Assembly: GCA_027621335.1 (NCBI GenBank)
Contig: JAQCAN010000001.1
Span: 1-31,356, forward strand
Reading direction: 5' to 3'
From: Bacteroidota bacterium
Lineage (GTDB): Bacteria; Bacteroidota; Bacteroidia; Flavobacteriales_D; JABDKJ01
DNA: 31,356 bases
A program made the position numbers and the translations under genes. Shown one piece after another: positions 1 to 12,400 of this stretch. The notes below the pieces were generated by a model, which searched no databases, was not told the DNA's origin, and worked only from the letters and a program-made list of their open reading frames with translations. The number at the start of each line of letters is the position of its first letter. Position 1 is the first letter of the stretch.

Positions 1-237
1 TGGACGATCATCACGAGGATCTTCATTGACTTCAGATTGACAGTAGGAGAGGTACTTCTAGCCTATCGCTTCGAGTTGCTGGTTTCTGTCTTTGTCACAC
101 ATCTTCTCGTCTATACCGTATTCCTCAATAAGGAGTTGAAGTTCAAGTATAACTGGCTCTATATCGTAACTATTCTATTTGTTATCATGATCTTTGGACA
201 AGACTATCGAGAGAATTTCATCTATTTCCAATTCTGA
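1..237 (+). CDS. MBOAT family O-acyltransferase (AlgI/DltB-like), C-terminal part, truncated by window edge
   Basis: Frame 1 is open from base 1 (WTIITRIFIDFRL...) to TGA 235-237. It is hydrophobic and ends in the FIYFQF terminus typical of AlgI-like MBOATs. The stop overlaps the ATG of the SGNH gene. Confidence 0.8.
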   Translation, partial: WTIITRIFIDFRLTVGEVLLAYRFELLVSVFVTHLLVYTVFLNKELKFKYNWLYIVTILFVIMIFGQDYRENFIYFQF

Positions 238-1265
238 TGAGGATAACTAAGTGGACCATCTATAGGATGACCTTCGGGGTCGGGATACTGGCCATAGTGG
301 TTGCACTTATTGTTGACTCTTTCTTCCAGTATTACGCCATACCTAATCAGAGGCATTTCTCCAATACGCGTAAAATAGATCGCATCATCGTTGGGAACTT
401 TGAGGAAGAGATTCCGATCTTCGGGAGTTCCGTGGCACGCAGAGGCTACTACTGTGACTCCATCGCTCCGAACGTCTATAACTATGGGATGTCAGGCTCC
501 CTGTTCAATAGCATCTATCCCTTGATGCAGATAGAATTGGATAAGGATAAGGATACTCCAGTTATCTTGGATTTCGATCATCACACCTTCCTTTACAGCG
601 AGCACATCAAACTGGACCTTAGTAATTATGTGCCTCATATTGAGAATGCATATATCAGGGAGATGTTGAAGGAACACGATAAATGTGATTGGAACTTCCG
701 AGTTCCAGGGCTAAGGTATTTTGGTCTTTATATGGACTACACGCGTGATTTCCTCAAACCGAAATTGGAGACTGAAGAACTCATCAGTTGTGGCGGAGTA
801 TTCTATCCTCCAAAGGAGCAGGTTTTCTTAAGGTACCTGGCCAAGCGTGAAGAGATGATCAAGGAGGAACAGGATCTAAGGGAAAAGAAAAAATCCAACC
901 CTACACTGTTTAACAATTCCGATGCTAGAAGGTTGGAATACTTCGAGGCCCTGTTCTCATTCCACCCTGATTCGGGCAACGTTGCGAAATTGGAGTCCTT
1001 GATGAGCGAGAATCCGAACCGGCAGTTCTTCTTGGTCTATTCCCCTCAGAATTGGAGTAAGATCGATGCCTTGGTGAATTATGATGAAATCATTTCTTTC
1101 CTAGCGAGACTGGAAAAGGATCATGCCAACTTGAAGGTCTTAGACTATTCTTTGGCAGACTTTCCTGACACTTACTATAGGGATAGTGGTCACATGAATA
1201 TCCTCGGTGCCAAGGTCTTCAGCGGGATGCTTGGAAGGGATATCAGACCTTATCTGAAGAATTAG
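237..1265 (+). CDS. Membrane-anchored SGNH-fold protein, likely periplasmic O-acyltransferase partner of the MBOAT
   Basis: N-terminal TM segment, block I-like IFGSS and block V-like YRDSGHMN (DxxH). TGATG coupling to the MBOAT gene. Confidence 0.7.
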   Translation: MRITKWTIYRMTFGVGILAIVVALIVDSFFQYYAIPNQRHFSNTRKIDRIIVGNFEEEIPIFGSSVARRGYYCDSIAPNVYNYGMSGSLFNSIYPLMQIELDKDKDTPVILDFDHHTFLYSEHIKLDLSNYVPHIENAYIREMLKEHDKCDWNFRVPGLRYFGLYMDYTRDFLKPKLETEELISCGGVFYPPKEQVFLRYLAKREEMIKEEQDLREKKKSNPTLFNNSDARRLEYFEALFSFHPDSGNVAKLESLMSENPNRQFFLVYSPQNWSKIDALVNYDEIISFLARLEKDHANLKVLDYSLADFPDTYYRDSGHMNILGAKVFSGMLGRDIRPYLKN

Positions 1266-1268
1266 TAT

Positions 1269-2039
1269 TCAGGCCTTCTTTCGCCATTCCTTCCACGCCA
1301 AAGGAAGAAAAGCCAGGTCATCCCATAGATACCGCTTGATCATTCGTCTAGGTTCACTTAGCATTCTATGAAGGAACTCCAAGCCAATCTTCTGCACCCA
1401 TTGGGGCGCTCTGGACTTGGTCCCGAAATAGAATTCGAATGAGGCCCCTAACAAATAGAAGAGAGGAGGGTGGCCAGTTGAAGACTCTGACATCAAATCC
1501 AAAGCAAGACGCTCCTGTTTTGGGAATCCTAATCCAATAAGTACATGAGTATATGTCCCATCAGATAGAAGTTCGCGGCAGACCTTCAAAACTTCATCAT
1601 AGGCTGGCCTATCGTCCAAGGTAAAAAAAGGTGGGGCATAAGCTTTGCAAAGGTGATATTCAGCTTCGAACCGGCCACCAAGCTCATCACTCGGAAGGAT
1701 CATCAGGACTCTTTCTCCGCGCAATCTGATATCACTCCATAGAAGAGGAAAGAGATCACTACCCGTAAGTCGACTCCTCAGTCCACCTTTGCCATACTTC
1801 CATTTACTGAGCCACACCAGCGGTTGACCATCTGGCAGCACATACCGTGCTTTCTTAGCGGCCACCATGATCTCTTTATTCTCATCGCGGTGGAGCTTTA
1901 CGATCTGATCTACATTGGGTGTGATAAGAAGGGGAAGAGTTCCTTCTTCATCTACCTTATTTCCGGCAATATCTCTGAGTAGGGATAGATGGTCGACATC
2001 ATCGATGAAATCCAGTCCGAAAAGGCGAACGGTTTTCAT
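1269..2039 (-). CDS. WecB/TagA/CpsF family glycosyltransferase (GT26)
   Basis: Motifs ITPNVD, LPDGQPLVWLS, RLTGSDL, LGFPKQE and RAPQWVQKIGLEFLHRMLSEPRR. Confidence 0.92.
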   Translation of the reverse strand: MKTVRLFGLDFIDDVDHLSLLRDIAGNKVDEEGTLPLLITPNVDQIVKLHRDENKEIMVAAKKARYVLPDGQPLVWLSKWKYGKGGLRSRLTGSDLFPLLWSDIRLRGERVLMILPSDELGGRFEAEYHLCKAYAPPFFTLDDRPAYDEVLKVCRELLSDGTYTHVLIGLGFPKQERLALDLMSESSTGHPPLFYLLGASFEFYFGTKSRAPQWVQKIGLEFLHRMLSEPRRMIKRYLWDDLAFLPLAWKEWRKKA

Positions 2040-3055
2040 GACATCCTTCTTTTGATGGTGTCAACGATACTGCGCATTCTATTTAGGTTGAAAAGGAGAG
2101 CTCCGAATAGCTTCACTGGAAAACTCAGATAGCTCACCAAAATGGCAACAGAATTAGGACGAACATCCACAGGTGCGTAACTGAACTTGGCCATATAGTC
2201 TTGACATATACGCTGACACTGCCACACTTCCACATCACTCAAGCCTTTTTCTTTCCACGTGCGGGATGGTTTCTTTCGAATTCCTTTATCCGCGGTGTTG
2301 TCAGCCTCCAAGGACGACCCTGCTTGATCGATCTCCAACATGGTCTCATCGAATTCCAATCCAAAGTGCTCGCAGATGAGTCTAACCTTATCCTGAGGAT
2401 GTTGGATAAGATCTTCGAATCGGACTTCAAGGACGGCCGGGTCAACTGAGTAATGAAGCCCAGCTTGAACCGCAGCATTCCAAAGTTTACTCATCGTGAT
2501 GGGATGATAGTTCATTCGTAAGCGCAGCACTTCCTTCTTGGTCATGAACGTTGCTCCTAGGTCCTTGCGCTTCCATTTGTTCTTTTGGGAGAGCATGGTT
2601 GCCCGGGGATCTCTGACCATGTGGAGGATTCTCGCTTCAGGAAAAGATTCCAGAATCTCTTTGATGTAGAAAACATTCTGTGGAGTCTTCTCACAGGTCT
2701 TCTCCTTGCTATGTGTATGGGGTTCATAGTCCAAAAAGGAGCCGTAGATCTGAATTCGGGTCAATGGTCGATCGCTGGGCCACGTGTCCAGTAGCGCTTC
2801 AATTTCTTTGGAATAAAGGTGTCCATGTTCCTCTACACTCTCGAAGAAACCAGCCCTTTGTCTAGTGAATAGTTTGGTATAGAGATCCTTTGCATCTGCC
2901 TTCGAAATAGTCTTACCCTGGTCAGAGGGTGACCACATGGTTTCAAAGAAATGAGGTTCATTGATGCTATGAACCTGAGGATGGCGGTCCATGATGCGCA
3001 TCATCATGGTGGTACCGCTGCGCGAGTTACCTACTATGAAGAGAGGCCCGATCAT
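2036..3055 (-). CDS. PAPS-dependent sulfotransferase (Sulfotransfer_3/TPST-like)
   Basis: 5'-PSB loop FIVGNSRSGTT, 3'-PB motif VRDPRATMLS, and VRFEDL. Start moved to ATG 3055, which gives an ATGA overlap with the upstream stop at 3052-3054; the track start at 3070 is TTG. Confidence 0.9.
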   Translation of the reverse strand: MIGPLFIVGNSRSGTTMMMRIMDRHPQVHSINEPHFFETMWSPSDQGKTISKADAKDLYTKLFTRQRAGFFESVEEHGHLYSKEIEALLDTWPSDRPLTRIQIYGSFLDYEPHTHSKEKTCEKTPQNVFYIKEILESFPEARILHMVRDPRATMLSQKNKWKRKDLGATFMTKKEVLRLRMNYHPITMSKLWNAAVQAGLHYSVDPAVLEVRFEDLIQHPQDKVRLICEHFGLEFDETMLEIDQAGSSLEADNTADKGIRKKPSRTWKEKGLSDVEVWQCQRICQDYMAKFSYAPVDVRPNSVAILVSYLSFPVKLFGALLFNLNRMRSIVDTIKRRMS

Positions 3056-4008
3056 TTGAACTGAGGCCAATAGTTAGATGCATCAACTTCTATAAGGGAG
3101 GAAAGAAGCCTGACTTCTGAAGCGTAATAACGGACCAAGTAGGCCTTCTCTTCAGCTGCGATGGATGGCAGGTCCTTGTCCGAATACAGCACTTTGGCCA
3201 AACTTCCCCGTAATTGTTTCGGCACCATTCCTTTCAGGGTCTTAATCACACCGGTCTTGACCAGGAGCGCATTCAACGAAGCAGACCGTGGAAGACTGGC
3301 GGTATTCTTCTTCGAGCTGACATCGAATTGGAAGGTCTCATCTACCTCCAGAAAGTGACAGATGTCTTTAAGGATATCTAAGGGACGGTCCCTATACTCC
3401 TCGTAGAAGATGACCTTCAACTGCTCTCTTGGGAACAATTGGAGATACCTTTCCAACTGCCTTCCATAATTCCCCAATTCCAAGTACTGATGATTCACGC
3501 CCCAACCTGAAGGGCTCTTCTCGGCATCTCGTTCGAGCTCGCTGATGAAGTCTTTCTCCTGAGTCTTGGCTTCTCGGAGGTTCATAAGGTACTGGGACCA
3601 AGCACGGCCAATAGGATTCCTGAGAATGACGATGAGCTTGGAATCAGGGTTGAAGTCGTGGATGGCTTGGGCTGAGCTCGGACAGACCATGTAGGAATTG
3701 CTTACATCGCCCAGGGTTTTCTCTCCTTCGACTTTGTCATAGAGGGCGAAATAGTGCTCGTCCGAGTTCACATGGGCGATATGGATTTTCTCAGGCATGC
3801 CTTTCTTGATGTAGGCATCCAGATCCAGTTTCACATCCAGAGCATATTCGGGAAGGAAATCCTCAGGATGGATATCGGCTTTTGCGAAGTGGTTGGTCTC
3901 CTTGATTGGGGGCAGGTAAACCTCAGGATGTTGATCCAGATAATGATAAAGGGAAGTAGAGCCTCCCTTCACTACACCGATCACGAAGAAATCAGGTTTC
4001 TTCTTCAT
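3052..4008 (-). CDS. PAPS-dependent sulfotransferase (heparan sulfate 3-O/N-sulfotransferase-like fold)
   Basis: PDFFVIGVVKGGSTSLYHYLDQHP...KETNHF and ILRNPIGRAWSQY. Confidence 0.92.
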   Translation of the reverse strand: MKKKPDFFVIGVVKGGSTSLYHYLDQHPEVYLPPIKETNHFAKADIHPEDFLPEYALDVKLDLDAYIKKGMPEKIHIAHVNSDEHYFALYDKVEGEKTLGDVSNSYMVCPSSAQAIHDFNPDSKLIVILRNPIGRAWSQYLMNLREAKTQEKDFISELERDAEKSPSGWGVNHQYLELGNYGRQLERYLQLFPREQLKVIFYEEYRDRPLDILKDICHFLEVDETFQFDVSSKKNTASLPRSASLNALLVKTGVIKTLKGMVPKQLRGSLAKVLYSDKDLPSIAAEEKAYLVRYYASEVRLLSSLIEVDASNYWPQFK

Positions 4009-4009
4009 A

Positions 4010-5566
4010 CTACTGCTGCGGAAGCCTGATGAGGTTGATTGAAAAGGCTGGGATCACGATATGGCTCAAGTCCGAACATGAGCCATTGAACACGTTGATC
4101 TGGCCATAATCATAAAGCGGTGATTCAGCGCTGAAACCACTCATTTCTGCTTTAAGGTTTTCTATCTTATCTTCCTTTAGACTGATAATTTCTTGCACGG
4201 GACTTTGGTTGATGACCACCAGAAATCGCTCAGACGAGCTTTGGAAGGCCTTTGTTGTCAAGAGTCTATTGTCTCCTTTCTGAATGGTATTCAAGGCCAG
4301 ATGGCTCACGTCACCATTGAAGAGAGGATTCAACAATTTGGCGCTATGGTAGGCTGCGTTTCCATAGAAGTCCCCTTTGCCATTGGTTGCAATGATGTTG
4401 AAGCCGCCACCAGAGGCCAATAGGTTATGATAGGTGGCCAAATGAACCTCATCCTGATCCGTGAGCATCATGAGATGCTCGGCCATGTAAAAGGCTTGGA
4501 GCATGGTGTTCCCCAAACCTTCGAAAACTTCTTTCACATTCCATTCGGTGAGCCACATTTTTCTTGGACTGAAGATTTCATCATAGGCCTCTATCCCTGA
4601 TGGTAATGTGGACTGGACCAATTCCAAGTTGTGCGTGATGTAGCAATCAGCCCTTTGGGGAAGCATGGCCATCTGATCACAATTCTTGCTCCTGGCATAA
4701 TTATGAACAACATAGCCATCGTAGAAGTCTTCTTTGGCCAAGGTGAGATTCCAAGCCGCAGTCTCTTCAGCTCGTTTCGTATTCATGCTCTTCATTTCAT
4801 CATTGGGAGCAGCTACGACTGCAAGGGGGATTTCTGGGTAGCGCTTTTTCAACTTCAATGCTATAGGCTTCACCGCCTTGATGTAGTCTTGGACACGTGG
4901 AAATTTATCTGAGTAGGTTTTCAGGTAGTACTCATTTCCCAGTTCTACACCTGCAATGGGTGTACCTGACTTAGAGAAGAACTCGACCATGGCCAGATTC
5001 TCTTCATCGCTTCCTGTAAAGTGATTCGTAACTAGGACCAGCGCTGATCCAGTAGATCTGCAGAGGTTCACCATATCTTGGGCATAGTTCTGGGAGAGCT
5101 TTCCGCGCTCGACATCTTCCAACTCCTTCTGTGCACTGCTTTTCGTGTTCTTATATGCATTGAAGCCAGCTACTGTTTCAGCATCAGAGATTTTCAATCC
5201 ATAACCAGGACCATTGAAGTGGTAGAAATTTGCAGACGTACCACCAGGGAATCGTAAGATATTGGGATGTATATCCTTGATCAATTTGACGCCTTTTTCC
5301 TCATCTGACAGGTTAAGGAAGAGGTTGGCCGTATTGTAGCCGTATAACCACTTGTTTATCAGTGTTCCAGTCCCATTCATCAATTTCAACGTCAAGCCAG
5401 CAGAAGGGTCTGAATCTGATGTGGGTCTGATGACAGCCTCAGTGGGTTCAGTGCCTTGTGATTCCGGCTCTTCACTAGCCGTTACACCTGAAGTCTGGGT
5501 ACAGGCCTTAAGGATGATTATCAGACCAATAGCGATAAGAGTAAGAGGAGATTCTTTAAGGGTCAT
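4010..5566 (-). CDS. Secreted, probably lipoprotein, clan GH-A glycoside hydrolase (GH79/GH51-like barrel plus beta-sandwich)
   Basis: Hydrophobic N-terminus ending LKA-C22, then an S/T/P/E-rich linker. Motifs LRFPGG, ELGNE212 (acid/base), VVHNY and MWLTE341WN (nucleophile). ATGA overlap with the wzy stop. Confidence 0.75.
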   Translation of the reverse strand: MTLKESPLTLIAIGLIIILKACTQTSGVTASEEPESQGTEPTEAVIRPTSDSDPSAGLTLKLMNGTGTLINKWLYGYNTANLFLNLSDEEKGVKLIKDIHPNILRFPGGTSANFYHFNGPGYGLKISDAETVAGFNAYKNTKSSAQKELEDVERGKLSQNYAQDMVNLCRSTGSALVLVTNHFTGSDEENLAMVEFFSKSGTPIAGVELGNEYYLKTYSDKFPRVQDYIKAVKPIALKLKKRYPEIPLAVVAAPNDEMKSMNTKRAEETAAWNLTLAKEDFYDGYVVHNYARSKNCDQMAMLPQRADCYITHNLELVQSTLPSGIEAYDEIFSPRKMWLTEWNVKEVFEGLGNTMLQAFYMAEHLMMLTDQDEVHLATYHNLLASGGGFNIIATNGKGDFYGNAAYHSAKLLNPLFNGDVSHLALNTIQKGDNRLLTTKAFQSSSERFLVVINQSPVQEIISLKEDKIENLKAEMSGFSAESPLYDYGQINVFNGSCSDLSHIVIPAFSINLIRLPQQ

Positions 5567-6906
5567 CCTATGGCTTTTGCGTTGTAATCCTCGATGTGAT
5601 TCTTTACTCGAACAATTTTATCCTGCTCGTAGAAATAATAAATGACCATAATGGCATTTATAGAGTGAGCGGCATACATGCTAAGGTAGCCATTGGAGAA
5701 TGAATCTACGAACAGAGCCAGGAGGAAGAATTGACAAGTCATAAGGAAGACGTTCTTTTTCAATGGGCCTATTTTGAGTCCAAAGAACAGTGCGAAGAGG
5801 AATTGGGAGTACAGAACAATCAACCCGATAAATCCATAGACAAAGACTTGTCCTGCTATTCCAATATCCGAGATGAAGAAGAAGCCTAGGAAATGCTGGA
5901 ATCCACCTTCCACCCATTGACCACTGACTTTGCCGCTTCCAATCCATGGATTCTTTTCAATGTACTCCAATGCAATATTCAATTCAGTCAGTCGAATGGA
6001 CTGCTCGGAAGTTGTGTTATCAACGCTGGAGACAGTGGTGAAGATATCGGAGAACATCACATAATACTTCGTATACTCTTCGGGAAAGAGCATCAACGTC
6101 AGTACAATCAGGAGAATGGCAGGAATACCGAATTTCAAGAGATTCAACACCTTGGATTTCAAACTCATCCTGAAAAGGAAGAAGGCCCCAATGGCTCCCA
6201 CAGACACAAGGATGGTCGTCCTATCTAATCTAAAGAAGACAATATAGATCAAGAACAACGCAGCATAGAGCAGGTAAATACTCTTACGCTTCATTATAGC
6301 TTTGATAGCATAGTAAATGGATCCAAAGAACATGTAAGACATATTGAAACGGAAGTATACATCACCCCCTTTCAGTTCATTCGCACCTGCTGCCCCTGTC
6401 TCCTGGAATTGAGAGGGATCCACAAGAAAAGTCATACCATAGAAAAGAATCATATTGAACCAGGCTACACTTACCCAAGCCTGCTCAACAAGTGAGATGT
6501 CGATCTCCTTATTTCTCAGCATGTTATAGACAATCAGGGCCCCGAAGATCAAGTAGAAATCACGAAAGGTTCCAATTCCATACAATAGAGGCTGCCCCCA
6601 TTCGAGATAGGCCGAGAAGCCCCCTAGGAAGGGAAGTAGAAACAACATAGAAAGTAGGAGTTCGAAGGGATTCAGTCGGAAATTACTTGTGAAGATCCGC
6701 TTAGAAACGCGATATCCGAGATAAAGGAAGATCACCCCCAGATAGATAGCTTCGAGAGCCAAATCTATAACCTGGAAAATCGTTTCCAGAAGCACCCTGA
6801 ATCCTACCAAGAAGTTGAAGAACAGGAAGATATAGTACAAGACGGCCTTGTCGAAAGTTACCTTGTAAGCTGACGCGTTCAGTCGTATAAGGTTGAAAAT
6901 CTTCAT
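5563..6906 (-). CDS. O-antigen polymerase/ligase family (Wzy-like) integral membrane protein
   Basis: About 10 or more hydrophobic segments. Late periplasmic loop SIRLTELNIALEYIEKNPWIGSG resembles Wzy_C. Located in a polysaccharide locus with Wzx. Confidence 0.75.
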   Translation of the reverse strand: MKIFNLIRLNASAYKVTFDKAVLYYIFLFFNFLVGFRVLLETIFQVIDLALEAIYLGVIFLYLGYRVSKRIFTSNFRLNPFELLLSMLFLLPFLGGFSAYLEWGQPLLYGIGTFRDFYLIFGALIVYNMLRNKEIDISLVEQAWVSVAWFNMILFYGMTFLVDPSQFQETGAAGANELKGGDVYFRFNMSYMFFGSIYYAIKAIMKRKSIYLLYAALFLIYIVFFRLDRTTILVSVGAIGAFFLFRMSLKSKVLNLLKFGIPAILLIVLTLMLFPEEYTKYYVMFSDIFTTVSSVDNTTSEQSIRLTELNIALEYIEKNPWIGSGKVSGQWVEGGFQHFLGFFFISDIGIAGQVFVYGFIGLIVLYSQFLFALFFGLKIGPLKKNVFLMTCQFFLLALFVDSFSNGYLSMYAAHSINAIMVIYYFYEQDKIVRVKNHIEDYNAKAIG

Positions 6907-6941
6907 GTCTTATTTTTCTAGATGTACTCCATTCCAGAGGT

Positions 6942-6994
6942 GTTCAGGCTGAACCATCCGTCAACCCTCCACTGAATCTTGGTTCATTTTGAAC
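6942..6994. promoter_or_regulatory. Two copies of palindrome GTTCA-N3-TGAAC, candidate tandem operator
   Basis: GTTCAggcTGAAC at 6942-6954 and GTTCAtttTGAAC at 6982-6994, exactly 40 bp apart, in the divergent intergenic region. Confidence 0.5.
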
Positions 6995-7000
6995 CGAGAG

Positions 7001-7032
7001 TAAAGCTAGGGTAACTAACGACAGTGGACAAA
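7001..7032 (-). promoter_or_regulatory. Bacteroidota sigma70-type promoter (-33 TTTG / -7 TAnnTTTG-like) for the wzy operon
   Basis: Minus strand TTTG (7032-7029), a 20-nt spacer, then TAGCTTTA (7008-7001, one mismatch). Confidence 0.5.
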
Positions 7033-7080
7033 TGAGGATTCAGCTTGTTTGAACATTAAACTGTGAGGATTAGCGGCCAC

Positions 7081-7115
7081 TTTGATTTATCCGAAAAGAA
7101 TAGAGGTTAATATTG
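7081..7115 (+). promoter_or_regulatory. Possible promoter for the sulfotransferase pair
   Basis: TTTG 7081-7084 and TAATATTG 7108-7115 (one mismatch). The spacer is 23 nt, slightly long, and the ATG lies 4 nt downstream. Confidence 0.35.
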
Positions 7116-7119
7116 CGAC

Positions 7120-8046
7120 ATGAAGGTTTCAGTGATGAATGTGGACATCTGCTTGCCTGATGTGATGATCGTTGGCGCTGCGAAAAGCGGAACGACCAGT
7201 CTCTATAGGATGCTCTCTAATCATAAGAGCATCTATTTTCCGCCTTCACAGAAGGAACCTTTCTATTTCTGCTTTCAAGGAAAGGAACCTATGGGTCTAG
7301 ATGAAGACTCCAAGAGCAGGCATATCTGGAGAACTGAGGACTACCTTTCACTCTACAAGGATTGTCCTTCTGAAGCTCTTGCAGTGGACGCTTCTACGGC
7401 CTACCTCTACAAGTTCGAGGAAAGTATTTCCCATATGGCCAAGCTTTATGGTGAAAAACTCAAGGAGGTCAAGGTCATCATTCTTCTGCGGAATCCTGTG
7501 CAGCGAGCATATTCACACTACACCTATCTGGTGAGAAATGGCTTCGAGACGCTGCCGTTCGAGGAGGCGATCAAAGTAGAGAACATCGAGGCAAGGAAGG
7601 AGAGGAGATGGGGCTTTGATTACTTGGGATATAGTTCCTACCCGGATCAGGTCAAGGCTTATATAGAGGCCTTTCCACATTGCAAGATCCTACTAACCGA
7701 GGATATGCGCGAGCCGGTCAGCTTCATGAAGGAGGTCACTGATTTCCTTGGGATTGAGCCAATGGAGGAAGTGAATGAAGTCCAAGCTAATCCTTCAGGC
7801 ATCCCTAAGAGCCGTTTCTTGGTTAACGTCCTGCGAAAGAACAAGGTGCTCAAGTCCATGGTGAACTTGCTTCCTGAAGCTCAAAAACATAGATTGCTTG
7901 ATAAGAGAGATGCCATGATGGGAAAATTGCTGGTCAAAGAATCGATGGATGCAGGCGTACGTGAGGACCTCGTAAGATATTTCGAATCGGACATCTTATT
8001 TCTGCAAAAGCTCATTGAAAGAGATCTGTCATCTTGGTTGAAATGA
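7120..8046 (+). CDS. PAPS-dependent sulfotransferase (HS-sulfotransferase-like)
   Basis: PDVMIVGAAKSGTTSLY...KEPFYF and LRNPVQRAYSHY. Confidence 0.92.
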   Translation: MKVSVMNVDICLPDVMIVGAAKSGTTSLYRMLSNHKSIYFPPSQKEPFYFCFQGKEPMGLDEDSKSRHIWRTEDYLSLYKDCPSEALAVDASTAYLYKFEESISHMAKLYGEKLKEVKVIILLRNPVQRAYSHYTYLVRNGFETLPFEEAIKVENIEARKERRWGFDYLGYSSYPDQVKAYIEAFPHCKILLTEDMREPVSFMKEVTDFLGIEPMEEVNEVQANPSGIPKSRFLVNVLRKNKVLKSMVNLLPEAQKHRLLDKRDAMMGKLLVKESMDAGVREDLVRYFESDILFLQKLIERDLSSWLK

Positions 8047-8966
8047 GCATCAGAACAGACGTGACATTACCTTCATTCCTTTTCGTAGGAACCGCTAAGG
8101 CAGGAACTACTTCTATAGAGAAGTACCTCAAGCAGCATCCTGATATCTGCATCCCAAGGAAGGAGACTTTCTATTTCTTAAAGGACATTTATCGGAACAA
8201 CCATCTCTCATATCCATTACAGCGAAGGAGAGATGAATACATTTTGAACAAGGAGGTCTATGAGGAAGAGTATGCTGGAATAGAGGCAATGGTCACAGGG
8301 GAAGTAGGAACGGGATACCTCTTTCATCATGAGCTGGCCATCCCTAGAATCAAAGAGACCTTAGGGGATGATGTCAAGATTCTGATGGTACTGCGACATC
8401 CTGTGGATAGATGCTACAGTTCCTATCTTCATTTCGCCAAGGACCTCCATGAGAAAGGCACCTTCGAGGAAGTCTTGGATAGCGAAGAAAAGCGTTTCAA
8501 AGAAGGGTGGGATTTCATGTGGCAGCACAGGTTGATGGGGCTCTATGCGAAACAAGTGGAGGCCTATCTAGGAGCTTTCAAAGAGGTGAAAGTCCTGTTC
8601 TATGAGGACTTTAGGAGAGCACCGGATGTCTTCATGAAGGAGGTGTTCGAATTCATTGACGTGAATCCGAATATCAATCTTGATCTAGCCAAGACTCATA
8701 ATGCATCTGGTACACCCAAGAACGAAACTCTGCAGCGTTTCATCACACAAGAGACTTTTCTAAAAAGGCTCGTCAGGCCCCTTTTTCGATTAGTTTTCTC
8801 TAAGGATAGAAGGGAGAAGATACGTAAGGAGGCCAAAGGGAGGAACCTGAAGAAGAGCGAAGGACTCAGTGCAGAACAACGGTCAAAACTGATGTCTTTT
8901 TATAGTGATGATATCGCTGAATTGAGTGCTCTTATCGGGCGTCCATTGACTGAAATCTGGAACTAG
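8043..8966 (+). CDS. PAPS-dependent sulfotransferase (HS-sulfotransferase-like)
   Basis: PSFLFVGTAKAGTTS...QHP...KETFYF and LRHPVDRCYSSY. Start set to ATG 8043 (ATGA overlap with the upstream stop). Confidence 0.92.
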   Translation: MSIRTDVTLPSFLFVGTAKAGTTSIEKYLKQHPDICIPRKETFYFLKDIYRNNHLSYPLQRRRDEYILNKEVYEEEYAGIEAMVTGEVGTGYLFHHELAIPRIKETLGDDVKILMVLRHPVDRCYSSYLHFAKDLHEKGTFEEVLDSEEKRFKEGWDFMWQHRLMGLYAKQVEAYLGAFKEVKVLFYEDFRRAPDVFMKEVFEFIDVNPNINLDLAKTHNASGTPKNETLQRFITQETFLKRLVRPLFRLVFSKDRREKIRKEAKGRNLKKSEGLSAEQRSKLMSFYSDDIAELSALIGRPLTEIWN

Positions 8967-8975
8967 TAGAGGGAT

Positions 8976-10322
8976 TTATTTGATTGATAGGAAGGTAGAG
9001 ATGCCGTATTTCCTATAGATGAAAAGTGCTCCACCGATATTCCATATTCCTGTGCTGATCAACGTGGCCCATGCAGCACCTTCCATCCCCCACATCGGAA
9101 TGAATAGAGCATTCAACCCGATATTGACTACTGTGGCGACAAGAACTAATTTCGTGAAATAGGACTGATTGCCGGTCATATTCATAAAGGCTCCCACCAA
9201 TCCGCAAGTGGCGTTAAGGAGTTGCGTGAAGGCCAAAATCCTCAACGTATTGGACCCTGCTCGGAATCCGTCATCTACGAGGCTTAGTATCAGTTCTGGA
9301 AAGGCTAGAAGGATCAGGCTTATTGGAATACTGAACAGCATGATGACATTCGTGCTCTTCTTGACAACGGTCTTCAAATTGACCATGTCCTGCTTCCAGA
9401 AAAGCTCGGATATCTTTGGCATGGCGATGGTCTTCAAGGAAGCGATCATGAAATTGGTGATGACACTGATCTTCAAGGCCACACTGAAGACCCCAACGGC
9501 TGATATGTCGGTATAGAATCCTAGCATGATGGTATCCACCCTCCCGTTGAGCAGTTGGATGAAGGACGTGAGTATCATGGGGAAGGAGATATACAGGTGC
9601 TCTTTCATGGAGAAGGCCTCCTTAGGTGAGGACTCACGCCCGGCCTTGGTCCTGTGAAAGAATCTCCAGATGTAGTAGGTCGTATAAATGGCTGCAACCG
9701 CTATGCCAAGGGCGTAGACGTCCACAGCATAGATAGTCCTGATGCCTAAGTAGATTGCTGTTGCAAAGCCTACTAGATTGATGAATTGAATAACGAGGTT
9801 GCGAAAGAGCTCTGAGATATGGACCTCCTTCAATCCACGGATGAATTCCACATTTATAGTGCCCATCACGCTCAAAGGAAGAATCGCTCCGATAATCTTG
9901 AATGGCAGACTGAGTTCAGGGTCGTGATAGATGGAATCAGCCAGATAATCCGAACCGATGATGAAGGCCAAACCTATAAGGGCGCTCAAGGGTAAGGTCA
10001 ATTTCTGTATGCCCTTGAAGACAGCAAGTACGAGCTTAGGTTTTCCGAGTTCGGTGTACTGAGAGGTGAATCGGATGATGGAGGTATTGAATCCTAAGGA
10101 GGCCACCATGACCAAGATGCCGGAAATGGCCAGACAGAGATTATAGATTCCAATACCATCTTCTCCTAATTCCCTTGAGATATAGACCATGAGGCCGTAG
10201 CTAAGGACCATGGACATCACCCTGTAGATCAAGGCCACCGATCCTCCCTTGAGGATTTCGGAGAAGTCCGCATTCCCATCTGGGCCACGAAGTTTTTTCT
10301 TGATTTTTTTAAGGAGATCCAT
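8976..10322 (-). CDS. wzx: Wzx-type polysaccharide flippase (MOP superfamily)
   Basis: 12 or more TM segments. GIYNLC...ASLGFNTSIIRF, VDTIMLG...VGVFSVALKI, and the C-terminal motif LNALFIPMWGMEGAAWATLIS. Confidence 0.88.
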   Translation of the reverse strand: MDLLKKIKKKLRGPDGNADFSEILKGGSVALIYRVMSMVLSYGLMVYISRELGEDGIGIYNLCLAISGILVMVASLGFNTSIIRFTSQYTELGKPKLVLAVFKGIQKLTLPLSALIGLAFIIGSDYLADSIYHDPELSLPFKIIGAILPLSVMGTINVEFIRGLKEVHISELFRNLVIQFINLVGFATAIYLGIRTIYAVDVYALGIAVAAIYTTYYIWRFFHRTKAGRESSPKEAFSMKEHLYISFPMILTSFIQLLNGRVDTIMLGFYTDISAVGVFSVALKISVITNFMIASLKTIAMPKISELFWKQDMVNLKTVVKKSTNVIMLFSIPISLILLAFPELILSLVDDGFRAGSNTLRILAFTQLLNATCGLVGAFMNMTGNQSYFTKLVLVATVVNIGLNALFIPMWGMEGAAWATLISTGIWNIGGALFIYRKYGISTFLSIK

Positions 10323-10448: not shown

Positions 10449-11756
10449 TCAGTCGATGCGCTCCAATTGAGCGCCAATGGCCTTGAGCCTGGTATCGATG
10501 TTCTGATACCCTCGGTCGATCTGATTCACGTTGTCGATGACGCTCTCTCCTTGTGCACTCAGGGCAGCGATGAGCAAGGAGACCCCCGCCCTGATATCAG
10601 GAGAAGTCATCTTGATACCGCGTAACATGCTCTGTTTGTCCAATCCGATCACAGTAGCTCTATGCGGATCACACAAGATGATCTTCGCCCCCATGTCTAT
10701 CAATTTGTCCACGAAGAAAAGTCGGCTCTCGAACATCTTTTGATGGATGAGTACAGAGCCTCTGGCTTGGATGGCGGTGACTAGCACAATACTCAAAAGG
10801 TCAGGAGTGAAACCCGGCCATGGAGCATCTGCAACTGTCAGTATGGAGCCATCTATGAAAGTATCAATCTCATAACGATCCTGTGAAGGAATGAATAGAT
10901 CATCTCCTTTCAGTTCCATTTTGATACCCAACCTGCGAAAGATGTTCGGTATCTGACCGAGTTCGTTATAATGTACATTCTTGATGGTGATCTCACTTCC
11001 CGTCATGGCAGCTAGGCCTATAAAGGAACCGATCTCGATCATATCAGGGAGACAGGTATGCACACATCCACCCAGGCTATCTACGCCATCGATAAGTAAG
11101 AGGTTGGATCCTACTCCTGAGATCTTTGCTCCCATGCTATTGAGCATCTTGCACAATTGCTGTATATATGGTTCACAGGCGGCATTGTAGACGGTAGTCC
11201 TGCCTTCCGCTAATACAGCCGCCATGATGATATTGGCCGTGCCGGTCACAGAAGCCTCGTCTAATAGCATGTAGGTACCCTTCAGGCGCTTAGCCTCTAC
11301 TTTATAGAAGTGCTCTTGACGTTCATAGGTGAAGGTGGCCCCGAGGCGTTGGAAGCCAATGAAATGTGTGTCCAATCGTCTTCTTCCGATCTTATCTCCG
11401 CCTGGTTTGGGAATGTAGCCCTTGCCAAAACGTGCCAACAAAGGCCCCACAATCATGATAGAACCGCGAAGGGCACCTCCTTTCAGCTTGAATTCCTCGC
11501 TCAGTAAGTACTCGATATTGACATGATCAGCTTTAAAGCTGCATGACCCTGCACCAAGTCTCTTGACGGTCACTCCCAGATCAGCGAGCAGTTCAATCAG
11601 TTTGTTCACATCCACGATGTCAGGGATGTTGTGAACAATTACTTCCTCAGGAGTGAGGAGAACCGCTGAAAGAATTTGAAGGACTTCATTCTTAGCTCCT
11701 TGAGGCGTGATTTCCCCTTTGAGCTTGTGACCGCCTTGTACCCTGAACGAACTCAT
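10449..11756 (-). CDS. murA: UDP-N-acetylglucosamine 1-carboxyvinyltransferase
   Basis: GAKNEVL, LRGSIM, PGGDKIGRRRLDTH, PDMIE, APWPGFTPD, MFESR, DIRAG and IDRGY motifs. ATG 11756 overlaps the DUF4290 stop (TGATG). Confidence 0.97.
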   Translation of the reverse strand: MSSFRVQGGHKLKGEITPQGAKNEVLQILSAVLLTPEEVIVHNIPDIVDVNKLIELLADLGVTVKRLGAGSCSFKADHVNIEYLLSEEFKLKGGALRGSIMIVGPLLARFGKGYIPKPGGDKIGRRRLDTHFIGFQRLGATFTYERQEHFYKVEAKRLKGTYMLLDEASVTGTANIIMAAVLAEGRTTVYNAACEPYIQQLCKMLNSMGAKISGVGSNLLLIDGVDSLGGCVHTCLPDMIEIGSFIGLAAMTGSEITIKNVHYNELGQIPNIFRRLGIKMELKGDDLFIPSQDRYEIDTFIDGSILTVADAPWPGFTPDLLSIVLVTAIQARGSVLIHQKMFESRLFFVDKLIDMGAKIILCDPHRATVIGLDKQSMLRGIKMTSPDIRAGVSLLIAALSAQGESVIDNVNQIDRGYQNIDTRLKAIGAQLERID

Positions 11757-12400
11757 CAATTTCTCTTCTTACGGTGATTTTTTTGGAAACGCCCTCCTTT
11801 CTTGGCAGGTCGGTTGGACTGTGCTTCAGTAGGTCTTACTCCTTTCACCTGTAGCTCGGAGCTATTCTTAAGGGCCAGATCCTCCAACTTTAGTTCCAGT
11901 TTGCCGCCAGAAATTTCGTTCATCTGATTCAGAATGGTCTGATCCTCTACGCTGTCCCTGTTCCAAGTGAGATAGAAACGTTTCATGAGATTGGCCACAC
12001 ATTGGGTCAAGGCTTTTCGCTCCTCAGGATCGGTCTTTGCAGGGATTGCATCGATGAGGTCCTGGATGGACTCACCATAATGTCCATATCGGATATTTCC
12101 CTTGGGATAGGATATGGAGTTGGGCTTGGTCTCGAAGGTTTCCTTGGTAGGGATAGGATAAGGGGATTCCACGTCCAACTTGAAATCGGACATGATGAAG
12201 ATGTGGTCCCATAACTTGTGGTTATAGTCGTCAACGTCCCTGAGATGAGGGTTGAGCTGGCCCATGACCTGAATGATGGCCGCCACTACTTTCTGACGCT
12301 CTTCTTTATCCTCAACGGTGAGAGCAAAGTTCACCATCTTCTTGACGTTGCGTCCATACTCCGGTAATTGGAGGTCAGGCCGCGCTGTATTGTATTCCAA
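11756..12400 (-). CDS. DUF4290 domain protein (Bacteroidota, usually upstream of murA)
   Basis: MEYNT.R..L.LPEYGRNV, KLWDHIFIMSDFKLDVESPYP and RYGHYG; basic C-terminal tail; TTG start. Confidence 0.85.
   Translation of the reverse strand: MEYNTARPDLQLPEYGRNVKKMVNFALTVEDKEERQKVVAAIIQVMGQLNPHLRDVDDYNHKLWDHIFIMSDFKLDVESPYPIPTKETFETKPNSISYPKGNIRYGHYGESIQDLIDAIPAKTDPEERKALTQCVANLMKRFYLTWNRDSVEDQTILNQMNEISGGKLELKLEDLALKNSSELQVKGVRPTEAQSNRPAKKGGRFQKNHRKKRN

What the first reader, a model, noticed from the sequence alone, without database searches (positions are those of the whole stretch)
1..10322. Candidate pathway for a sulfated and O-acylated Wzx/Wzy surface polysaccharide
Seen: four PAPS-sulfotransferases, a GT26 transferase, a Wzy-like polymerase, Wzx, an MBOAT+SGNH pair and a secreted GH-A enzyme within 10.3 kb. 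The minus-strand block wzy-GH-ST-ST-GT26 is joined by ATGA overlaps or a 1-bp gap. Known: genetically defined bacterial sulfated exopolysaccharides are rare; cyanobacterial synechan is the main model. Inference: this heterotroph makes a multiply sulfated, acylated glycan, possibly a glycosaminoglycan mimic. No initiating phosphoglycosyltransferase, Wza/Wzc or PAPS-synthesis gene is in the window, so the locus continues leftwards or is split.
Basis: partly seen in the sequence, partly recalled or inferred. Interest (0 to 1): 0.8.

Follow-up and report, generated by a model that had tools for sequence, protein, structure and literature searches.

The report
Sulfated capsule/slime gene cluster, Flavobacteriales
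An uncultured aquatic/marine Flavobacteriales bacterium carries a complete 22.5-kb assembly line that most likely builds a very densely sulfated, acylated surface sugar polymer; the design is known from a few other bacteria but has not been described in this phylum, which is better known for eating such polymers.

Summary
Window 1-10322 holds four sulfotransferases with intact PAPS-binding motifs, a GT26 transferase, Wzy, Wzx, a DltD-like SGNH protein, the last 78 residues of an MBOAT and a GH51/GH79-like lipoprotein. The genes are joined by ATGA overlaps.

The window is a whole contig of a fragmented MAG. Two other contigs of the same MAG (C183, C166) and three conspecific contigs (99% identity) extend it leftwards. 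They add the rest of the MBOAT, a GT4, Wzc, Wza, a WcaJ-type initiating transferase, a fifth sulfotransferase and cysC-cysD-cysN.

Orthologues of all four sulfotransferases keep their positions around Wzy and the hydrolase in about 28-45 species-level Bacteroidota genomes. The closest relatives have only two sugar-adding enzymes for four or five sulfotransferases.

No sulfite reductase was found in the genus, so PAPS probably serves sulfation only.

The glycosaminoglycan-mimic idea is untested, and no chemistry exists for the product.

It is a new member of a known kind (synechan and the Vibrio and Cobetia sulfated capsules). This scan has already noted similar multi-sulfotransferase loci on other DNA, in at least 38 genomes.

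The parts
1..237 (+). C-terminal 78 residues of an MBOAT O-acyltransferase (470 aa in full); the gene is cut by the contig end
   Evidence: Hydrophobic open frame with no Pfam hit on its own. It is near-identical to the C-terminus of the PF03062 protein in L033/L030 and continues in MAG contig C183.
237..1265 (+). DltD-like SGNH acyltransferase/esterase partner of the MBOAT, with an N-terminal membrane anchor (alternative start at 267)
   Evidence: No Pfam hit. In 24 homologues S65, N82, G84, D316 and H319 are invariant. AF2 pLDDT is 92.5 and the best folds are DltD, E 1e-5. One TM segment at residues 6-36.
1269..2039 (-). GT26 (WecG/TagA/CpsF family) glycosyltransferase, predicted second-sugar transferase
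   Evidence: PF03808 5.4e-29; TIGR00696 72 bits against a cut-off of 69. It is the last gene of the conserved operon in relatives.
2036..3055 (-). Sulfotransferase ST_A (Sulfotransfer_3; start ATG at 3055, alternative TTG at 3070)
   Evidence: PF13469 8.5e-33; PAPS motifs present. Its orthologue clade has 34 members, support 1.0, all downstream of the hydrolase.
3052..4008 (-). Sulfotransferase ST_B (heparan-sulfate 3-OST/NST-like branch)
   Evidence: Pfam 2e-15. Best PDB match is 3rnl at 3.6e-46, then HS 3-OSTs at 1e-9. Clade of 54 members, support 0.99.
4010..5566 (-). Lipoprotein with a clan GH-A (GH51/GH79-like) fold, always coupled to Wzy; predicted polymer-processing hydrolase
   Evidence: No Pfam hit. 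Signal peptide with Cys22. E212 and E341 invariant. AF2 pLDDT 88.8. Foldseek: GH51 at 2e-23, GH79/heparanase at 1e-17 to 1e-19. 274 loci in Bacteroidota genomes.
5563..6906 (-). Wzy-type polymerase (polytopic membrane protein)
   Evidence: PF04932 6.5e-9. About 10 hydrophobic segments. Lies directly upstream of the hydrolase in at least 43 of 80 loci.
6907..7119 (.). Divergent intergenic region between wzy and the ST_C-ST_D pair
   Evidence: Gene map and sequence. A metatranscriptome contig spans 6894-7148. Promoters were not tested.
7120..8046 (+). Sulfotransferase ST_C
   Evidence: Pfam 1.6e-13; 3rnl 1.2e-42. Clade of 29 members, all upstream of the hydrolase.
8043..8966 (+). Sulfotransferase ST_D (start ATG at 8043, alternative TTG at 8034)
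   Evidence: Pfam 3.7e-15. 3rnl 1.1e-49; NDST and 3-OST at 1e-8, with the Glu motif aligned. Clade of 38 members, all upstream.
8976..10322 (-). Wzx flippase (MOP superfamily); right-hand end of the locus, followed by murA
   Evidence: PF01943 1.7e-25 plus MatE. About 9 hydrophobic segments. murA at 10449-11759.

Best explanation
Window 1-10322 is the right-hand 10.3 kb of one 22.5-kb capsule/exopolysaccharide locus that is Wzx/Wzy-dependent and exported by Wza/Wzc. The gene order is cysN-cysD-cysC, ST2, PGT, wza, wzc, GT4, MBOAT, SGNH, GT26, ST_A, ST_B, hydrolase, wzy, ST_C, ST_D, wzx.

Proposed mechanism. The gene content is shown; every step is inferred from family knowledge.
1. CysDN and CysC make PAPS.
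2. A WcaJ-type phosphoglycosyltransferase puts a hexose-1-phosphate (predicted glucose) on undecaprenyl phosphate.
3. GT26 adds the second sugar, and in this lineage a GT4 adds a third.
4. Five soluble, signal-less PAPS sulfotransferases sulfate different positions of the lipid-linked repeat on the cytoplasmic face.
5. Wzx flips the polyanionic unit, Wzy polymerises it, and Wzc/Wza export it.
6. MBOAT plus the membrane-anchored DltD-like SGNH protein O-acylate the polymer, probably with acetyl, outside the cytoplasm.
7. The GH51/GH79-like lipoprotein trims or releases chains, as PslG does for Psl.
For: Contiguity:
- Three independent assemblies at 99.1-99.2% identity join C166 to C73 across a 3306-bp gap.
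- The MAG's own contig C183 fills that gap and overlaps the first 42 bases of C73.
- Housekeeping genes flank the locus on both sides: recQ/tatC/ABC on the left and murA/DUF4290/uvrD on the right.

Sulfotransferases:
- PAPS-binding motifs and the Glu motif are intact in ST_A to ST_D, and the PSB and RNP motifs in ST2.
- None has a signal peptide.

Conservation:
- The operon PGT-Wzx-ST_C-ST_D-Wzy-hydrolase-ST_B-ST_A-GT26 recurs on one strand in other Flavobacteriales and Cytophagales MAGs, with unrelated flanks.
- There are four separate sulfotransferase clades with fixed positions.
- cysC/D/N lie beside such loci in 15 of 80 cases.

Other points:
- No sulfite reductase was found in G000 (85.5% complete), G001 (95%), G002 (100%) or G011 (91%). 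This argues that PAPS is not used for sulfate assimilation.
- PAPS genes together with sulfotransferases inside a polysaccharide cluster are the published hallmark of sulfated polysaccharide synthesis (PMC11641403).
- Short metatranscriptome contigs at 95-100% identity map onto six genes of the locus.
Against: - There is no chemical evidence; the organism is uncultured.
- Acceptor specificity of the sulfotransferases cannot be read from sequence. ST_A's nearest solved relatives are protein-tyrosine sulfotransferases. Distant ST_A-like genes in another family of the order sit with P450, cupin hydroxylase and KAS III genes, not with wzx/wzy.
- Wzy_C also covers O-antigen ligases.
- Wzc shows no C-terminal tyrosine cluster.
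- The RNA evidence comes from contigs and may include carried-over DNA.
- Further glycosyltransferases could be encoded elsewhere, so the repeat size is not fixed.
Confidence: 0.75

Rival explanations
1. The product is a sulfated O-antigen or anionic LPS-type glycan, for example an A-LPS-like anchor for type IX secretion cargo, rather than a free capsule or slime. The Wzy_C protein or another enzyme would ligate it to lipid A-core.
For: PF04932 covers both ligases and polymerases. A T9SS cargo gene lies 6 kb away. Wzc lacks a tyrosine-rich tail.
Against: Wza and a full-length PCP-2a Wzc lie inside the locus, next to the initiating transferase, here and in the relatives. No second Wzy_C gene was seen in the locus.
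Confidence: 0.12
2. Some or all of the sulfotransferases act on a non-glycan acceptor (lipid, peptide tyrosine or small molecule) and merely share an operon with glycan genes.
For: ST_A is TPST-like in PDB searches. ST_A-like clusters in G009 lie in a P450/cupin/KAS III context. Bacteroidota are known to sulfonate lipids and steroids (my own knowledge).
Against: Stop-start overlaps link ST_A and ST_B to GT26, the hydrolase and wzy. Orthologues keep these positions in 28-45 genomes. ST_B, ST_C and ST_D fall in the carbohydrate (HS 3-OST/NST-like) branch, with the Glu motif aligned to those enzymes.
Confidence: 0.08
3. The locus is a silent or decaying remnant that makes no polymer.
For: The MAG is fragmented. 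The GT4/MBOAT segment is more divergent (96.6%) than its flanks. The ST_C-ST_D pair is inverted relative to relatives.
Against: All 16 genes have intact frames in four assemblies. Catalytic motifs are conserved. Fragments occur in metatranscriptomes.
Confidence: 0.05

Closest known systems
Synechan (xss) cluster of Synechocystis sp. PCC 6803 (PMC8205485)
   Same: Wzx/Wzy-dependent pathway with a PCP. PAPS-type sulfotransferases (PF00685/PF13469) sit inside the polysaccharide cluster. The proposed model has sulfation of the repeat unit before flipping.
   Different: xss has 8 glycosyltransferases and 2 sulfotransferases. It has no PAPS genes, no hydrolase and no MBOAT; it carries its own regulators, and its OPX is encoded elsewhere. 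This locus has 3 sugar-adding enzymes (2 in the closest relatives), 5 sulfotransferases, cysCDN, Wza and Wzc in one locus, and sits in a different phylum.
Sulfated capsule clusters of Vibrio sp. KMM 8419 and Cobetia marina KMM 1449 (PMC11641403, PMC11766843)
   Same: Marine heterotrophs. A second cysNDC copy and sulfotransferases lie within a capsule locus. The Vibrio polymer carries an O-acyl group.
   Different: The Vibrio capsule is exported by an ABC transporter (Kps) and has no Wzy. Its three sulfotransferases are spread over an 80-gene region, and its polymer structure is solved. Here the pathway is Wzx/Wzy-dependent, the operon is compact, and there is no chemistry.
PslG of the Pseudomonas aeruginosa psl operon (periplasmic GH39 hydrolase inside an EPS operon; my own knowledge)
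   Same: A clan GH-A hydrolase encoded inside a biosynthetic operon and exported from the cytoplasm.
   Different: The protein here matches GH51/GH79 folds, belongs to no Pfam family, is a predicted lipoprotein, and is fixed next to Wzy in many Bacteroidota loci, including loci without sulfotransferases.
DltB/DltD, AlgI/AlgJ/AlgX and PatA/PatB two-component O-acylation systems (my own knowledge of these families)
   Same: An MBOAT membrane protein followed by a membrane-anchored SGNH-fold partner with a Ser-Asp-His triad.
   Different: The locus has no DltA or DltC. The SGNH protein is a separate, unannotated family (PF27429 on some homologues). The acyl donor and the acceptor are unknown.

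Membership tests
Wzx/Wzy-dependent, Wza/Wzc-exported polysaccharide pathway | Initiating polyprenyl-phosphate phosphoglycosyltransferase | tested here: met
   Bac_transf 2.4e-66. WcaJ equivalog TIGR03023 scores 421 bits against a cut-off of 411. It lies on C166/L033, not in the window.
Wzx/Wzy-dependent, Wza/Wzc-exported polysaccharide pathway | Wzx flippase and Wzy polymerase | tested here: met
   PF01943 1.7e-25 and PF04932 6.5e-9; both polytopic. Sequence cannot separate a polymerase from a ligase.
Wzx/Wzy-dependent, Wza/Wzc-exported polysaccharide pathway | PCP-2a (Wzc) and OPX (Wza) in the same locus | tested here: met
   Poly_export plus SLBB; Wzz/GNVR/AAA_31 in an 800-aa protein with 2 TM segments. 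Contiguity.
Sulfated-polysaccharide gene cluster (hallmark of PMC11641403) | PAPS-dependent sulfotransferases with intact cofactor motifs inside the glycan cluster | tested here: met
   five genes.
Sulfated-polysaccharide gene cluster (hallmark of PMC11641403) | PAPS synthesis genes (cysD, cysN, cysC) in the cluster | tested here: met
   They lie 0.2 kb from ST2, in the same locus.
Sulfated-polysaccharide gene cluster (hallmark of PMC11641403) | Ester sulfate in the product | not testable with these tools
   Uncultured organism; no chemistry.
Synechan xss cluster | Same gene set (8 GTs, XssQ/R/S regulators, plasmid-borne) | tested here: not met
   Only a PGT, a GT26 and a GT4 are present; the Pfam scans found no regulator in the locus. 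Same logic, not the same cluster.
MBOAT + SGNH O-acylation pair | MBOAT protein followed by an SGNH-fold partner with a catalytic Ser and a DxxH motif | tested here: met
   PF03062 2e-24. S65, D316 and H319 invariant. DltD is the top fold match.
Dlt D-alanylation system | DltA ligase and DltC carrier protein | tested here: not met
   Neither is among the 16 genes of the locus. The DltB model scores 166 bits, below its cut-off of 375.
Clan GH-A glycoside hydrolase | (beta/alpha)8 barrel with Glu after strand 4 (NE motif) and Glu on strand 7 | tested here: met
   Model pLDDT 88.8, with strands 204-208 and 336-344. E212 and E341 invariant. 289 PDB matches at E<=0.001, led by GH51 and GH79.
GH51 or GH79 family | Match to the family's sequence model | tested here: not met
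   No Pfam or NCBIfam hit at E<=0.01. No PDB sequence hit. 12-16% identity in the structural alignments.
Glycosaminoglycan or GAG mimic | Repeating hexosamine-uronic acid disaccharide | tested here: inconclusive
   No sugar-nucleotide genes in the locus. The PGT is WcaJ-type. No UDP-GlcNAc 2-epimerase was found in the 85.5%-complete MAG, though sugar dehydrogenases are present. Only the two-sugar, many-sulfate design and the HS-type sulfotransferase branch resemble GAGs.

The most novel reading that the evidence does not exclude
The conserved core operon (PGT, GT26, Wzx, Wzy, hydrolase and four or five sulfotransferases, with no other glycosyltransferase) makes a disaccharide repeat carrying about four sulfates. 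That would be a bacterial polymer with heparin-like charge density, sulfated while still on undecaprenyl pyrophosphate and flipped as a polyanion. If so, widespread aquatic and marine Flavobacteriales and Chitinophagales would be producers of sulfated glycans, not only consumers.
Probability: 0.3. Interest if true: 0.8.

Novelty: new member of a known kind. Interest (0 to 1): 0.55.

Why it matters
Bacteroidota are treated as the main degraders of algal sulfated polysaccharides. One MAG survey found no sulfotransferase in any of its Bacteroidetes bins (PMC9723792). A conserved, complete pathway for sulfated polysaccharide in this phylum would add a bacterial source of sulfated glycans to aquatic carbon and sulfur budgets.

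It would also supply compact operons and four conserved families of carbohydrate sulfotransferase for microbial production of heparin-like or otherwise sulfated polymers. Finally, it gives a context for an undescribed hydrolase family that travels with Wzy.

Tried and rejected
- Sequence searches of the hydrolase and the SGNH protein against PDB gave nothing. Only alignment-based folds resolved them.
- An exact-protein look-up of the C166 PGT failed. The Wza look-up succeeded instead.
- tblastn of the locus proteins against multi-sulfotransferase clusters in three complete genomes of the same order found no wzx/wzy. Pfam showed that the G009 cluster is a P450/cupin/KAS III context. Sulfotransferase clusters alone therefore do not mark glycan loci. 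I did not count those genomes as support.
- I considered that cysDNC serve assimilation. I think this unlikely, because no sulfite reductase was found in four genomes.
- I considered ManNAcA as the GT26 sugar. It is unsupported, because no wecB was found.
- I did not run complex prediction, because I claim no binding.
- I did not test promoters in 6907-7119.
Full report
**What is in the window.** The window is an entire 31,356-bp contig (C73) of a 2.38-Mb MAG with 299 contigs, 85.5% complete. Its relatives are labelled uncultured Flavobacteriales. The DNA recurs in marine and aquatic metagenomes from several studies.

Positions 1-10322 hold ten genes:
- an open frame entering from the left (1-237, +)
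- a 342-aa protein (237-1265, +)
- GT26 (1269-2039, -)
- two sulfotransferases (2036-3070 and 3052-4008, -)
- a 518-aa protein (4010-5566, -)
- Wzy (5563-6906, -)
- two more sulfotransferases (7120-8046 and 8034-8966, +)
- Wzx (8976-10322, -)

To the right come murA, DUF4290, uvrD and other housekeeping genes, so the locus ends at 10322.

**The sulfotransferases.** All four have the 5'-phosphosulfate loop near the N-terminus and no signal peptide. They share an invariant R-x-P...S 3'-phosphate motif and an invariant Glu in a K/N-E-x-x-x-F motif.

In HMMER alignments that Glu lines up with the SETF motif of heparan-sulfate N-sulfotransferase and the AEPHFF motif of 3-O-sulfotransferase-3. From my own knowledge, these motifs carry the catalytic base.

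ST_B, ST_C and ST_D are closest to an uncharacterised bacterial sulfotransferase structure (3rnl, 1e-42 to 1e-49) and next to heparan-sulfate 3-OST/NDST enzymes. ST_A is a Sulfotransfer_3 protein with weak similarity to protein-tyrosine sulfotransferases.

**The two unannotated proteins.**
- The 518-aa protein has a signal peptide ending in Cys22 and 45 homologues, none named. Its invariant residues include E212 in G-V-E-L-G-N-E and E341 in T-E-W-N. Its AlphaFold model (pLDDT 88.8) is a (beta/alpha)8 barrel plus a beta-sandwich. The best matches are GH51 arabinofuranosidases (E 2e-23) and GH79 beta-glucuronidases/heparanases (E 1e-17 to 1e-19) at 12-16% identity. It shares the clan GH-A fold and catalytic pair but belongs to no described family.
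- The 342-aa protein has one N-terminal membrane helix and invariant S65, N82, G84, D316 and H319. Its model (pLDDT 92.5) is closest to DltD.
- The open frame at 1-237 is the C-terminus of a 470-aa MBOAT.

**The rest of the locus.** The exact hydrolase protein also lies on a 68.6-kb ENA scaffold and on two Logan contigs. These are 99.1-99.2% identical to C73 and to another MAG contig, C166. They join the two left ends across 3306 bp. The MAG's own 3314-bp contig C183 fills this gap and overlaps the first 42 bases of C73.

The full order is: recQ-tatC-ABC | cysN, cysD, cysC, ST2 (Sulfotransfer_2), PGT, wza, wzc, GT4, MBOAT, SGNH, GT26, ST_A, ST_B, hydrolase, wzy, ST_C, ST_D, wzx | murA.

The PGT passes NCBI's WcaJ (glucose-1-phosphate transferase) equivalog cut-off.

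**Conservation.** A scan of species-representative genomes with the hydrolase alignment found 274 loci. Nearly all are in Flavobacteriales, Chitinophagales, Sphingobacteriales and Cytophagales MAGs. Among the best 80:
- Wzy lies directly upstream of the hydrolase in at least 43
- 50 carry sulfotransferases, and 26 carry four or five
- 42 show Wzx
- 23 show an MBOAT
- 15 show cysC

A tree of 155 sulfotransferases gives four clades. Each contains one window gene and each has a fixed position. ST_A (34 members, support 1.0) and ST_B (54, 0.99) lie downstream of the hydrolase. ST_C (29, 0.89) and ST_D (38, 0.86) lie upstream. These are therefore four old, separately maintained enzymes, not recent duplicates.

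The closest relatives (L036-L039, L051) have PGT-Wzx-ST_C-ST_D-Wzy-(ST2)-hydrolase-ST_B-ST_A-GT26 on one strand (L038 lacks a detected PGT and L039 a detected ST_A), and the flanks I scanned in L036, L037, L038 and L051 are unrelated genes. That core has only two sugar-adding enzymes for four or five sulfotransferases. The window's lineage has inverted the ST_C-ST_D pair and added GT4, MBOAT and the SGNH protein.

Thirty loci pair Wzy with the hydrolase but have no sulfotransferase. The hydrolase therefore belongs to the polymerisation/export step, not to sulfation as such.

**Physiology.** No sulfite reductase domain was found in this MAG, in two genomes of the same genus (95% and 100% complete) or in G011. 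PAPS synthesis is therefore unlikely to serve sulfate assimilation. No sulfatase was found. One CysQ-like phosphatase gene lies elsewhere. The MAG has two more glycan loci with sulfotransferases (C292 and C175), nine sulfotransferase genes in all. Short metatranscriptome contigs at 95-100% identity map onto six genes of the locus. This is weak evidence of expression, because DNA carry-over cannot be excluded.

**Controls and limits.** Sulfotransferase clusters are not always glycan loci. Distant ST_A-like genes in G009 lie with P450, cupin hydroxylase and KAS III genes. The argument here rests on the operon context and on orthology, not on the domain alone.

The glycosaminoglycan idea is not supported by sugar-pathway genes. 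What resembles GAGs is the short repeat with many sulfates, and the enzyme branch. No chemistry exists.

**Comparison and novelty.** The logic matches synechan (8 glycosyltransferases and 2 sulfotransferases; PMC8205485). It also meets the hallmark of PAPS genes plus sulfotransferases proposed for the Vibrio sp. KMM 8419 capsule (PMC11641403).

My literature searches found no description of such a pathway in Bacteroidota. One survey reported no sulfotransferases in its Bacteroidetes MAGs.

This scan has already noted multi-sulfotransferase Wzx/Wzy loci in at least 38 other genomes. None of them is a close sequence relative of this one.

Verdict: a real, complete, conserved locus and a new member of a known kind. 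Its unusually high ratio of sulfotransferases to glycosyltransferases makes it worth testing.

Noticed in passing
G000 contig C292 (L115:238-9023): A second glycan locus with three sulfotransferases: Sulfotransfer_4, DegT aminotransferase, WbqC, two Sulfotransfer_3/1 genes, GT2, two unknown genes and GT4. The contig ends cut it.
   Followed up: partly
G000 contig C175 (L116:11507-17980): A third locus: methyltransferase, sulfotransferase, two GT4 genes and an 824-aa YfhO-like membrane protein. The gene set recalls the putative sulfated-GAG cluster drawn for Pontiella F21.
   Followed up: partly
window 7120-8966: The ST_C-ST_D pair is inverted relative to the co-directional operon of the closest relatives. 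This creates the divergent intergenic region 6907-7119. Three conspecific assemblies share the inversion.
   Followed up: partly
G000 contig C183 (L117) against L033:12420-15766: The wzc-end/GT4/MBOAT segment is only 96.6% identical to the conspecific contig, with indels, whereas its flanks are 99.1%. Strain variation here probably caused the assembly breaks.
   Followed up: no
L022:2252-15773 (G009, same order): Four adjacent Sulfotransfer_3 genes lie with a cytochrome P450, three cupin/JmjC proteins, an Asp/Asn beta-hydroxylase, KAS III and GT2. This looks like a sulfated small-molecule or lipid cluster, not a capsule locus.
   Followed up: partly
L051:1209-3648 (Flavobacteriales UBA6057): An ECF sigma factor and a 618-aa protein with an outer-membrane beta-barrel domain sit divergently upstream of the sulfated-glycan operon. 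They are possible regulators.
   Followed up: no
L033:10805-13207 (Wzc): The 800-aa Wzc homologue has the ATPase domain but no tyrosine-rich C-terminal tail; only one Tyr occurs in its last 60 residues.
   Followed up: no
80 loci L035-L114: Thirty loci, mostly Chitinophagales and Sphingobacteriales, keep the Wzy-hydrolase pair without any detected sulfotransferase. The undescribed GH-A-like family is therefore a general partner of Wzy in Bacteroidota.
   Followed up: partly
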